From: Escherichia coli
GTDB lineage: Bacteria; Pseudomonadota; Gammaproteobacteria; Enterobacterales; Enterobacteriaceae
Strand: one strand, 5' to 3'
Assembly (NCBI RefSeq): GCF_046105845.1
Contig: NZ_CP151004.1
DNA length: 64,000 bases
Shown here in pieces: positions 20,140 through 24,298 of this stretch. Both the position numbers and the translations under genes were made by a program. Under the pieces are notes generated by a model that searched no databases, had not been told where the DNA came from, and saw only the letters and a list, made by a program, of their open reading frames with translations. The number at the start of each line of letters is the position of its first letter. Positions within the stretch are counted from its first letter, which is position 1.

Positions 20140-21194
<1,055 letters not shown>

Positions 21195-21240
21195 TTACTT
21201 GCGGTAGAAAAATAAAATTCGGCGCAATTCTAACAGGGAA

Positions 21241-21256
21241 AGCAAACGTTTGCGAG
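21241..21256 (-). promoter_or_regulatory. PurR operator (pur box) of purMN
   Basis: Minus-strand TCGCAAACGTTTGCTT palindrome upstream of purM. Confidence 0.6.
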
Positions 21257-21452
21257 ACTGCTTTACACAACCTTTTTGTACGTCTTTTCCCCAGGCGCGC
21301 GGCAAAACAATACTTGTACCAGGGCAAAGGATCGTTTTCGGATGGAATAATCTTCTTCCATAACCATTTGAATATAAAATAACTTTATCTCAAACCGTTA
21401 TCATTTTGACTAAAGTCAACGAAAATAATATTGCCGCCTTGAAGAAAGGAGG

Positions 21453-21473
21453 TATAATCCGTCGATTTTTTTT
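21453..21473 (+). promoter_or_regulatory. upp promoter -10 TATAAT and initially transcribed T8 tract (UTP-sensitive reiterative transcription)
   Basis: tataatccgtcgattttttttg; TATAAT 21453-21458, T-run 21466-21473. Confidence 0.6.
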
Positions 21474-21500
21474 GTGGCTGCCCCTCAAAGGAGAAAGAGT

Positions 21501-22127
21501 ATGAAGATCGTGGAAGTCAAACACCCACTCGTCAAACACAAGCTGGGACTGATGCGTGAGCAAGATATCAGCACCAAGCGCTTTCGCGAACTCGCTTCCG
21601 AAGTGGGTAGCCTGCTGACTTACGAAGCGACCGCCGACCTCGAAACGGAAAAAGTAACTATCGAAGGCTGGAACGGCCCGGTAGAAATCGACCAGATCAA
21701 AGGTAAGAAAATTACCGTTGTGCCAATTCTGCGTGCGGGTCTGGGGATGATGGACGGTGTGCTGGAAAACGTTCCGAGCGCGCGCATCAGCGTCGTCGGT
21801 ATGTACCGTAATGAAGAAACGCTGGAGCCGGTACCGTACTTCCAGAAACTGGTTTCTAACATCGATGAGCGTATGGCGCTGATCGTTGACCCAATGCTGG
21901 CAACCGGTGGTTCCGTTATCGCGACCATCGACCTGCTGAAAAAAGCGGGCTGCAGCAGCATCAAAGTTCTGGTGCTGGTCGCTGCGCCAGAAGGTATCGC
22001 AGCGCTGGAAAAAGCGCACCCGGACGTCGAACTGTTTACTGCATCGATTGACCAGGGACTGAACGAGCACGGATACATTATTCCGGGCCTCGGCGATGCC
22101 GGTGACAAAATCTTTGGTACGAAATAA
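21501..22127 (+). CDS. upp: Uracil phosphoribosyltransferase Upp
   Basis: 208 aa from [20 protein letters not shown]. Confidence 0.95.
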
Positions 22128-22142
22128 AGAATAAAAATAATT

Positions 22143-22172
22143 AAAGCCGACTTTAAGAGTCGGCTTTTTTTT
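22143..22172 (+). terminator. Rho-independent terminator/attenuator after upp
   Basis: aaagccgac tttaaga gtcggcttt followed by T-run. Confidence 0.6.
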
Positions 22173-22212
22173 GAGTAAAGCGCCTATAACACATAATACA
22201 GAGGATAATACT

Positions 22213-23502
22213 ATGACGCGCCGTGCTATCGGGGTGAGTGAAAGACCGCCACTTTTACAGACAATCCCGCTTAGTTTGCAACATTTGTTCGCCATGTTTG
22301 GTGCAACCGTCCTGGTGCCCGTCTTATTTCATATTAACCCGGCGACTGTACTGTTATTTAACGGTATAGGAACACTGCTGTATCTCTTCATCTGTAAAGG
22401 GAAAATTCCGGCTTATCTTGGTTCCAGCTTTGCCTTTATTTCACCGGTATTGTTACTGTTGCCGTTGGGGTATGAAGTCGCGCTGGGCGGCTTTATTATG
22501 TGCGGCGTGCTGTTCTGCCTGGTTTCTTTTATCGTGAAGAAAGCGGGGACCGGCTGGCTGGACGTGCTGTTTCCACCTGCGGCAATGGGCGCAATCGTTG
22601 CCGTCATCGGTCTGGAGCTGGCGGGCGTAGCTGCCGGTATGGCAGGTTTACTCCCGGCTGAAGGGCAAACTCCAGACTCCAAAACCATCATCATCTCCAT
22701 TACCACGCTGGCGGTTACGGTTTTAGGTTCCGTGCTGTTTCGTGGTTTCCTGGCAATTATCCCGATTTTAATTGGCGTGCTGGTGGGCTACGCGCTCTCT
22801 TTCGCAATGGGAATTGTCGATACCACGCCGATTATTAATGCTCACTGGTTTGCGCTGCCAACTCTCTATACGCCGCGCTTCGAGTGGTTTGCCATTCTGA
22901 CTATTCTGCCAGCGGCGTTAGTGGTTATTGCCGAACACGTAGGGCACCTGGTGGTAACGGCTAATATCGTCAAAAAAGATCTGCTGCGCGATCCTGGTCT
23001 GCACCGTTCGATGTTTGCTAACGGCTTGTCGACCGTGATCTCCGGCTTCTTTGGCTCCACGCCAAATACCACCTACGGGGAAAACATTGGCGTGATGGCG
23101 ATCACCCGTGTTTACAGTACCTGGGTTATCGGCGGGGCAGCGATTTTCGCTATCCTGCTTTCCTGCGTCGGTAAACTGGCTGCTGCTATCCAGATGATCC
23201 CATTGCCGGTGATGGGCGGCGTTTCGCTGCTGCTTTATGGTGTCATCGGTGCTTCCGGTATTCGTGTTTTGATCGAATCGAAAGTGGATTACAACAAAGC
23301 ACAGAACCTGATCCTGACTTCCGTGATTTTGATCATCGGTGTCAGCGGCGCGAAGGTAAACATCGGCGCGGCGGAGCTGAAAGGTATGGCGCTGGCGACC
23401 ATCGTCGGTATCGGCTTAAGTTTGATCTTCAAACTGATTAGTGTGCTGCGCCCTGAAGAAGTGGTGCTGGACGCAGAAGACGCGGATATAACAGACAAAT
23501 AA
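22213..23502 (+). CDS. uraA: Uracil permease UraA
   Basis: 429 aa from [24 protein letters not shown]; NCS2 family. Confidence 0.95.
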
Positions 23503-23510
23503 TGTACCGA

Positions 23511-23531
23511 CCGGGCAGTGTTGCTGCCCGG
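23511..23531 (+). other. Hairpin downstream of uraA (ccgggcag tgttg ctgcccgg)
   Basis: 8-bp perfect stem; weak U-tract. Confidence 0.35.
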
Positions 23532-23596
23532 TTCAAACATCATGGGATTCTGTGGTAAACTTCTCGCGATTTTGTGAAATCCTGGTTGAGGTATCT

Positions 23597-24298
23597 CTGA
23601 ACACACCGGCACAGCTCTCTTTGCCACTTTATCTTCCTGACGACGAAACCTTTGCAAGTTTCTGGCCGGGGGATAACTCCTCTTTACTGGCCGCGCTGCA
23701 AAACGTGCTGCGTCAGGAACATAGCGGTTACATCTATCTCTGGGCACGCGAAGGCGCGGGGCGCAGCCATCTGCTGCACGCGGCTTGCGCGGAATTGTCG
23801 CAGCGTGGCGATGCGGTGGGCTATGTCCCGCTGGATAAACGCACCTGGTTTGTTCCGGAAGTGCTCGACGGTATGGAGCATTTGTCGCTGGTCTGTATCG
23901 ACAACATTGAGTGTATTGCAGGCGATGAGTTGTGGGAGATGGCGATTTTCGATCTCTACAATCGAATTCTGGAATCGGGCAAAACACGGTTGTTGATCAC
24001 CGGCGATCGTCCACCGCGGCAGTTGAATCTGGGATTACCGGATCTCGCGTCGCGACTCGACTGGGGGCAGATCTACAAATTGCAGCCACTTTCTGATGAA
24101 GATAAGTTGCAGGCGCTACAGTTACGCGCGCGTTTGCGTGGTTTTGAACTGCCGGAAGATGTGGGGCGTTTCTTGCTGAAGCGGCTCGACAGAGAAATGC
24201 GCACGTTATTTATGACGTTGGATCAGCTGGATCGTGCGTCGATTACCGCGCAACGTAAGCTGACCATTCCGTTTGTGAAAGAGATTCTGAAACTGTAG
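23597..24298 (+). CDS. hda: DnaA-inactivating protein Hda (non-AUG CTG start per established annotation)
   Basis: 233 aa from [19 protein letters not shown]; AAA+ motifs; ORF track extends 15 codons upstream. Confidence 0.85.

What the first reader, a model, noticed from the sequence alone, without database searches (positions are those of the whole stretch)
21453..21473. upp promoter with T8 tract in the initially transcribed region
TATAAT is followed by GTCGATTTTTTTTG, the classic arrangement for UTP-sensitive start-site selection and reiterative transcription that couples upp-uraA expression to pyrimidine levels.
Basis: partly seen in the sequence, partly recalled or inferred. Interest (0 to 1): 0.25.

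Follow-up and report, generated by a model that had tools for sequence, protein, structure and literature searches.

The report
Known UTP-sensing E. coli upp promoter

Summary
TATAAT lies at 21453-21458. It is followed by CCGTC, then G (21464), A (21465), eight T's (21466-21473) and G, 37 nt upstream of the upp start codon at 21501. The window is E. coli chromosome (ppk-purN-purM, then divergently upp-uraA-hda). From the -35 hexamer to the ATG it is identical to K-12 MG1655. The initially transcribed sequence GATTTTTTTTG is the one published for upp-uraA, whose control by UTP-sensitive start-site choice and non-productive reiterative transcription is established (Tu & Turnbough 1997; Cheng et al. 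2001, as cited in papers I could read). A T8 run alone is not unusual in the window (5 found, 6.2 expected). The pairing of a consensus -10 with T8 is unique (0 of 100 shuffles). New supporting evidence: TATAAT-N5-GA-T(6-9) sits upstream of upp in 61 of 63 sampled Enterobacterales species, and in Aeromonas and Photobacterium. It always keeps the same register to the -10, while its distance to the ATG ranges from 30 to 172 nt. In E. coli, 8% of complete genomes carry T7 instead of T8; a control T8 tract nearby shows T7 in about 0.1%. Verdict: supported, already known, low interest.

The parts
21431..21436 (+). -35-like hexamer TTGCCG, 16-bp spacer to the -10
   Evidence: Consensus scan. Poorly conserved between genera.
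21453..21458 (+). -10 hexamer TATAAT (perfect consensus)
   Evidence: TATAAT in every Enterobacterales species that carries the motif.
21459..21463 (+). Discriminator CCGTC (positions 1-5 after the -10). It is G+C-rich and ends in C.
   Evidence: Its length is 5 nt in 72 of the 73 motif-bearing species, and the consensus is cccGC.
21464..21465 (+). The two alternative start bases: G at position 6 (21464; favoured at low UTP, productive) and A at position 7 (21465; favoured at high UTP, leading to reiterative AUUUUn transcripts)
   Evidence: The sequence equals the published ITR GATTTTTTTTG. Positions 6 and 7 fit RNA polymerase's preference for starting 7 bp after the -10 at a purine (PMC5730371). 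GA is present in 66 of 73 motif-bearing species. Which start is used at which UTP level comes from the literature and was not tested here.
21466..21473 (+). T8 tract (non-template strand), the slippage-prone run where reiterative U addition occurs
   Evidence: Length is 6-9 across Enterobacterales. In E. coli genomes the counts are T8 4737, T7 439 and T9 19.
21464..21500 (+). upp 5' untranslated leader (37 nt from G6), with the Shine-Dalgarno sequence AAGGAG at 21488-21493
   Evidence: No terminator-like site. No Rfam match in the leader up to E-value 1.
21501..22127 (+). upp, uracil phosphoribosyltransferase (208 aa)
   Evidence: ORF list. RefSeq annotation of the matching DNA.
22143..22172 (+). 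Terminator-like hairpin (AAAGCCGACT/AGTCGGCTTT) followed by T's, in the upp-uraA spacer
22213..23502 (+). uraA, uracil permease (429 aa), the second gene of the operon

Best explanation
This is the sigma-70 promoter and initially transcribed region of the E. coli upp-uraA (uracil salvage) operon. RNA polymerase bound at TATAAT (21453-21458) can start at G21464 (position 6) or at A21465 (position 7). At high UTP the A start is favoured. The short AUUU... transcript slips backwards on the eight A's of the template strand, and U is added repeatedly. The resulting AUUUUn RNAs are released without ever reaching upp. At low UTP the G start is favoured, and GAUUUUUUUUG transcripts mostly stay in register and are elongated through upp and uraA. 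Salvage expression therefore rises when pyrimidine nucleotides are scarce, with no regulatory protein involved. Shown here: the identity of the sequence, its genomic context and its evolutionary conservation. Taken from the literature: the two start sites, the UTP dependence and the fate of the transcripts.
For: (1) The sequence is identical from the -35 to the ATG to K-12 MG1655 and to a published BW25113 primer. The window is E. coli purM/upp DNA. (2) PMC7039003 gives the upp-uraA ITR as 5'-GATTTTTTTTG and says these promoters make long reiterative RNAs that do not switch back to normal transcription. PMC12709180 says reiterative initiation at codBA and upp is triggered by UTP-stimulated start-site switching and is non-productive. 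The titles of the primary papers are cited. (3) G and A lie at positions 6 and 7 after the -10, which fits the preferred start window and the purine preference. (4) The -10 plus T8 arrangement is unique in the window, with 0 of 100 shuffles matching. It belongs to the only promoter-like site in the purM-upp spacer. (5) In an unbiased sample of 120 species found through the Upp N-terminus, TATAAT-N5-GA-T(6-9) lies upstream of upp in 61 of 63 Enterobacterales, 8 of 9 Aeromonadales and 3 of 4 Photobacterium. The background for the loose motif is 0.024 per 150 nt. Conservation is confined to the block aaaa.GcggTATAATcccGCGATTTTTTT and drops to nothing immediately after the tract. (6) The tract is locked to the -10: the gap before the purines is 5 nt in 72 of 73 species. 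Its distance to the ATG varies from 30 to 172 nt. This is what an initiation-level device would show. (7) In vivo, upp mRNA falls together with pyrBI, carA and codBA when UTP and CTP accumulate (PMC3903281).
Against: Nothing in the sequence argues against it. There are three limits. No transcription experiment can be run here. The primary papers and the Turnbough reviews are not held, so the start-site assignments and the tract-length experiments are quoted second-hand or from memory. My attempt to find independent genome-wide start-site data failed: one paper has no supplement held, and the other's table is truncated before this locus.
Confidence: 0.96

Rival explanations
1. The U8 run acts in the mRNA as a U-rich translation enhancer (a ribosomal protein S1 binding site) or a stability element of the upp 5' UTR, and not at transcription initiation.
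For: The tract is transcribed in G-started mRNAs and lies 14 nt upstream of the Shine-Dalgarno AAGGAG at 21488-21493. U-rich leaders can enhance translation (general knowledge).
Against: Across 73 species the tract keeps a fixed register to the -10 hexamer (5 nt + GA). Its distance to the start codon ranges from 30 to 172 nt, and in Pectobacterium and Brenneria whole hairpin units are inserted in between. An RBS-linked element would keep its distance to the RBS and not to the promoter. The literature assigns the tract to reiterative transcription.
Confidence: 0.02
2. The T run is the tail of an intrinsic terminator or attenuator in the upp leader, as in pyrBI or pyrE attenuation.
For: Pyrimidine genes in E. 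coli do use UTP-sensitive attenuation at T-rich terminators (general knowledge; PMC6524683).
Against: No G+C-rich hairpin precedes the tract, which begins 8 nt after the -10 hexamer. The terminator scan finds nothing in 21100-21600. No Rfam leader family matches.
Confidence: 0.01
3. The tract is a chance homopolymer, or a DNA-level slippage (phase-variation) site with no role in UTP sensing.
For: T8 runs are as frequent in the window as chance predicts: 5 found, 6.2 expected. The tract length does vary among E. coli genomes (T7 439, T9 19).
Against: The juxtaposition with a consensus -10 is unique. It is conserved over Enterobacterales, Aeromonas and Photobacterium. All the length variants seen (T6-T9) remain long tracts downstream of the start site, so they cannot switch the promoter on or off.
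Confidence: 0.01

Closest known systems
E. coli K-12 upp-uraA promoter (Tu & Turnbough 1997; Cheng, Dylla & Turnbough 2001)
   Same: Everything. The sequence from the -35 to the ATG is identical, the ITR GATTTTTTTTG is the same, and the genes and neighbours are the same.
   Different: The only difference is one SNP upstream of the -35 (T in the window, G in MG1655, at about 21426). The window comes from a non-K-12 strain.
E. coli codBA promoter (Qi & Turnbough 1995), ITR 5'-ATTTTTTG
   Same: The same logic applies: UTP-sensitive switching between adjacent start sites, with the A start feeding into non-productive reiterative U addition on a long T tract.
   Different: The tract is T6 and not T8, and the operon is different (cytosine permease/deaminase). 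It is not in this window.
E. coli pyrBI (ITR AATTTG) and carAB P1 (GTTTGC) promoters
   Same: UTP-dependent reiterative transcription at the start site lowers productive initiation.
   Different: The tract is only T3. High UTP triggers the slippage directly, without start-site switching. The effect is smaller, and it is combined with other controls (attenuation, repressors).
Bacillus subtilis pyrG (ITR GGGCTC), CTP-sensitive reiterative transcription
   Same: RNA polymerase senses nucleotide concentration through slippage on a homopolymer at the start site.
   Different: The outcome is productive: the added G's let the transcript form an antiterminator, so slippage turns the gene on. The nucleotide sensed and the run are different.

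Membership tests
upp/codBA-type control: UTP-sensitive start-site selection coupled to non-productive reiterative transcription | A sigma-70 promoter whose -10 hexamer places two adjacent purines (G then A) at the preferred start positions 6-7 | tested here: met
   TATAAT 21453-21458, G21464 at position 6, A21465 at position 7. The start-position preference is from PMC5730371.
upp/codBA-type control: UTP-sensitive start-site selection coupled to non-productive reiterative transcription | A long run of T (non-template strand) directly after the A start | tested here: met
   T8 at 21466-21473. It matches the published ITR 5'-GATTTTTTTTG.
upp/codBA-type control: UTP-sensitive start-site selection coupled to non-productive reiterative transcription | Located in front of a pyrimidine salvage operon | tested here: met
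   upp 21501-22127 and uraA 22213-23502 lie directly downstream.
upp/codBA-type control: UTP-sensitive start-site selection coupled to non-productive reiterative transcription | Sequence identity with the experimentally characterised K-12 promoter | tested here: met
   Identical from the -35 through the ATG to MG1655 and to the BW25113 primer in PMC11200800.
upp/codBA-type control: UTP-sensitive start-site selection coupled to non-productive reiterative transcription | Transcription actually starts at these two bases | not testable with these tools
   Reported in the literature (cited). My search for independent start-site tables found nothing usable.
upp/codBA-type control: UTP-sensitive start-site selection coupled to non-productive reiterative transcription | The start-site ratio and AUUUUn synthesis depend on UTP concentration, and expression responds to pyrimidine supply | not testable with these tools
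   Literature only. PMC12709180 covers the mechanism. PMC3903281 shows upp mRNA dropping when UTP and CTP accumulate.
upp/codBA-type control: UTP-sensitive start-site selection coupled to non-productive reiterative transcription | Purifying selection on the -10 / start / T-tract block (expected of a functional element, though not a formal criterion) | tested here: met
   Present in 61 of 63 Enterobacterales species, plus Aeromonas and Photobacterium. Conservation stops at the end of the tract.

The most novel reading that the evidence does not exclude
The length of the upp T tract is a naturally variable tuning knob. T7 is carried by about 8% of complete E. coli genomes, including the type strain ATCC 11775, on at least two haplotype backgrounds. 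T9 occurs in a few genomes, many of them O157:H7. T7 and T8 are about equally common among Enterobacterales species. If tract length sets the dynamic range of UTP control (as I recall Cheng et al. 2001 showed for engineered tracts), lineages would differ heritably in uracil-salvage regulation, and possibly in 5-fluorouracil sensitivity.
Probability: 0.3. Interest if true: 0.3.

Novelty: already known. Interest (0 to 1): 0.08.

Why it matters
The element is a textbook case of gene regulation without a regulatory protein: RNA polymerase itself reads the UTP pool through start-site choice and transcript slippage. Finding it here only confirms that the first-stage reader can recognise it from raw sequence. 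The survey does add something modest. The device is conserved in register with the -10 across Enterobacterales, Aeromonas and Photobacterium. Its tract length varies between 6 and 9, even within E. coli, which gives natural alleles for testing how tract length sets regulatory range.

Tried and rejected
(1) I tried to read the primary papers and reviews (PMC179593, PMC94869, PMC2415746, PMC3078970). None is held, so I relied on later open-access papers that quote them. (2) I looked for independent genome-wide start-site data at MG1655 positions 2620909/2620908. PMC12709180 has no supplement held. The Cappable-seq table of PMC4782308 is cut after about 12% of the file and gave no hit. (3) Leader terminator or attenuator: rejected, because there is no hairpin before the tract. 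(4) Known RNA family in the leader: there is no Rfam match in the leader, and nothing above gathering score in 20500-24000. The four weak matches (E 0.29-0.48) lie over the upp-uraA terminator hairpin or inside purM. (5) T7 alleles as assembly errors: largely rejected. A control T8 tract 700 bp away shows T7 in only about 6-7 genomes against 439 at the promoter tract. Some T7/T9 calls inside the clonal O157:H7 lineage may still be long-read homopolymer errors. (6) T8 as a significant feature on its own: rejected, because its frequency is at chance level. The significance comes from its position and its conservation.

Full report
WHAT IS THERE. Reading 21000-22000 gives ...TTGCCGCCTTGAAGAAAGGAGGTATAATCCGTCGATTTTTTTTGTGGCTGCCCCTCAAAGGAGAAAGAGTATG... 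TATAAT occupies 21453-21458. It is followed by CCGTC (21459-21463), G (21464), A (21465), eight T's (21466-21473) and G (21474). The finding's coordinates are exact. Its wording leaves out the two C's after the hexamer. The simple promoter scan finds one sigma-70-like site in 21100-21600: TTGCCG at 21431-21436, a 16-bp spacer, then TATAAT, matching 10 of 12 positions. It finds no terminator-like site. The ATG at 21501 opens a 208-codon ORF, followed by a 429-codon ORF from 22213.

IS IT MORE THAN CHANCE. A T8 run alone is not remarkable: 5 occur in the window against 6.2 expected. The combination TATAAT-N(4-9)-T8 occurs once and in none of 100 shuffles. The stronger argument is conservation, described below.

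WHERE THE WINDOW COMES FROM. The 411 bases around the site match 5,424 of 5,426 complete E. coli genomes, with several 100% matches, and are annotated purM and upp. The local gene order is ppk1, purN, purM on the minus strand, then upp, uraA and hda on the plus strand. It is the same in K-12 MG1655. From the -35 to beyond the ATG the window is identical to MG1655. The only nearby difference is one SNP upstream of the -35. A published BW25113 knockout primer, GGTATAATCCGTCGATTTTTTTTGTGGCTGCCCCTCAAAGGAGAAAGAGT (PMC11200800), is identical to window 21451-21500.

WHAT IS KNOWN ABOUT THIS SEQUENCE. PMC7039003 lists the slippage-prone initially transcribed regions of E. coli: pyrBI 5'-AATTTG, codBA 5'-ATTTTTTG and upp-uraA 5'-GATTTTTTTTG. 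It states that these promoters make long reiterative RNAs and do not return to normal transcription. PMC12709180 states that reiterative initiation is triggered directly by high UTP at pyrBI, and indirectly, through start-site switching stimulated by excess UTP, at codBA and upp. The products are released, which the authors call 'non-productive reiterative initiation'. Both papers cite Tu & Turnbough 1997 (J Bacteriol 179:6665) and Cheng, Dylla & Turnbough 2001 (J Bacteriol 183:221). I could not open either paper or the Turnbough reviews. From memory of those papers: the two starts are called G6 and A7, counted from the -10. High UTP favours A7, whose AUUUUn products are never extended. Low UTP favours G6, whose transcripts elongate normally. 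Shortening the tract weakens regulation step by step. In the window, G21464 and A21465 are exactly positions 6 and 7 after the hexamer. This fits the general preference for starting 7 bp downstream of the -10 at a purine, modulated by initiating-NTP concentration (PMC5730371). In vivo, upp mRNA falls with pyrBI, carA and codBA when UTP and CTP accumulate (PMC3903281).

NEW EVIDENCE FROM RELATED GENOMES. I then looked upstream of each start codon. TATAAT, five bases ending in C, GA and a run of 6-9 T's are present in 61 of 63 Enterobacterales species. Brenneria is included only after widening the search window. The genera include Citrobacter, Enterobacter, Klebsiella, Serratia, Yersinia, Pantoea, Erwinia, Edwardsiella, Hafnia, Providencia, Photorhabdus and Xenorhabdus. 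The two Enterobacterales exceptions are an AT-rich MAG and Plesiomonas, which has an interrupted tract (GATTTTATTT). The motif is also present in 8 of 9 Aeromonadales (TATGAT-TCCGC-GA-T7 in Aeromonas) and 3 of 4 Photobacterium. The same loose motif occurs at 0.024 per 150 nt elsewhere in these loci. Tract lengths in Enterobacterales are T7 (26), T8 (25), T9 (7) and T6 (2) among the 60 species tabulated. Brenneria, found on widening the search window, has T7. I anchored 72 sequences on the hexamer. The only conserved block is aaaa.GcggTATAATcccGCGATTTTTTT, and information content falls to zero right after the tract. The gap between the hexamer and the purines is 5 nt in 72 of 73 cases. The distance from the start purine to the ATG ranges from 30 to 172 nt. 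The tract therefore belongs to the promoter and not to the ribosome-binding site. This supports an initiation-level device and argues against a translational role for the U run.

VARIATION WITHIN E. COLI. The 71 bases from the -35 to the ATG are identical in 4,737 of 5,423 genomes. A query carrying T7 is matched exactly by 439 genomes, including the type strain ATCC 11775. A T9 query is matched by 19, many of them O157:H7. As a control for homopolymer assembly errors, the T8 tract of the upp terminator 700 bp downstream shows T7 in only about 6-7 genomes. Most T7 calls at the promoter are therefore real alleles. T7 occurs on at least two flanking haplotypes. One strain (O8:H8 16F5M1D1) and E. 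albertii carry T instead of G at position 6.

RIVALS. A leader terminator is excluded because no hairpin precedes the tract. A known structured RNA is excluded: Rfam gives no match in the leader and nothing above gathering score in the region. A translational enhancer is made unlikely by the register argument above. Chance is excluded by conservation. DNA-level phase variation cannot switch the promoter, because the tract lies downstream of the start site and all natural variants remain long.

VERDICT. Both the observation and the interpretation are correct. This is the characterised upp-uraA promoter itself, so it is already known and of low interest. The steps shown here are sequence identity, context, statistical uniqueness and conservation in register with the -10. 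The steps taken from the literature are start-site usage, UTP dependence and the fate of the reiterative transcripts.

Noticed in passing
window 21466-21473: The length of the upp T tract is polymorphic in E. coli. Of 5,423 complete genomes, 4,737 match T8 exactly, 439 match T7 (including the type strain ATCC 11775) and 19 match T9 (many O157:H7). A control T8 tract at 22165-22172 shows T7 in only about 6-7 genomes. T7 sits on at least two haplotype backgrounds.
   Followed up: partly
L007-L126 (upstream of the Upp start codon in each): TATAAT-N5-GA-T(6-9) is conserved upstream of upp in 61 of 63 Enterobacterales species, in Aeromonas (TATGAT-TCCGC-GA-T7) and in Photobacterium. Vibrio instead has TATAAT-CTGGA-GGTTTG, and many Shewanella have TAnAAT followed by an A-rich stretch and a short T3 run (...AATTTGC/AATTTAC). 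These are short T3 runs like those of pyrBI and carAB. Pasteurellales and Orbales have neither.
   Followed up: partly
L012 (E. albertii NBRC 107761) and L005 (E. coli O8:H8 16F5M1D1): Position 6 is T instead of G (TATAATCCGTCTATTTTTTT...). The start that is productive at low UTP in K-12 is therefore missing. How these strains regulate or express upp is unclear.
   Followed up: no
L047, L083 (Pectobacterium), L054 (Brenneria): the 110-190 nt before the upp ATG: One or two inserted units lie between the T-tract promoter and the upp ribosome-binding site. Each unit is a G+C-rich hairpin plus a small hairpin followed by T6. This could be an additional attenuator or an inserted repeat element.
   Followed up: no
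window 21242-21253: The perfect palindrome GCAAACGTTTGC lies in the purM-upp spacer, 66-77 nt upstream of the annotated purM start (21176, minus strand). It looks like the PurR operator of purMN (recalled from memory). Similar AAACGTTTGC boxes occur in the same position in Plesiomonas, Photobacterium and Grimontia loci.
   Followed up: no
window 22143-22172: A terminator-like hairpin (11 pairs) followed by T's lies in the 85-nt upp-uraA spacer. It suggests partial termination between the two genes of the operon. Weak, sub-threshold Rfam sRNA matches (STnc240, 28 bits against a gathering score of 55) overlap it.
   Followed up: partly
window 21406-21419: The inverted repeat TTGACT-AA-AGTCAA lies 12 nt upstream of the -35 hexamer. 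It is identical in E. albertii but not evident in other genera, and may be chance.
   Followed up: no
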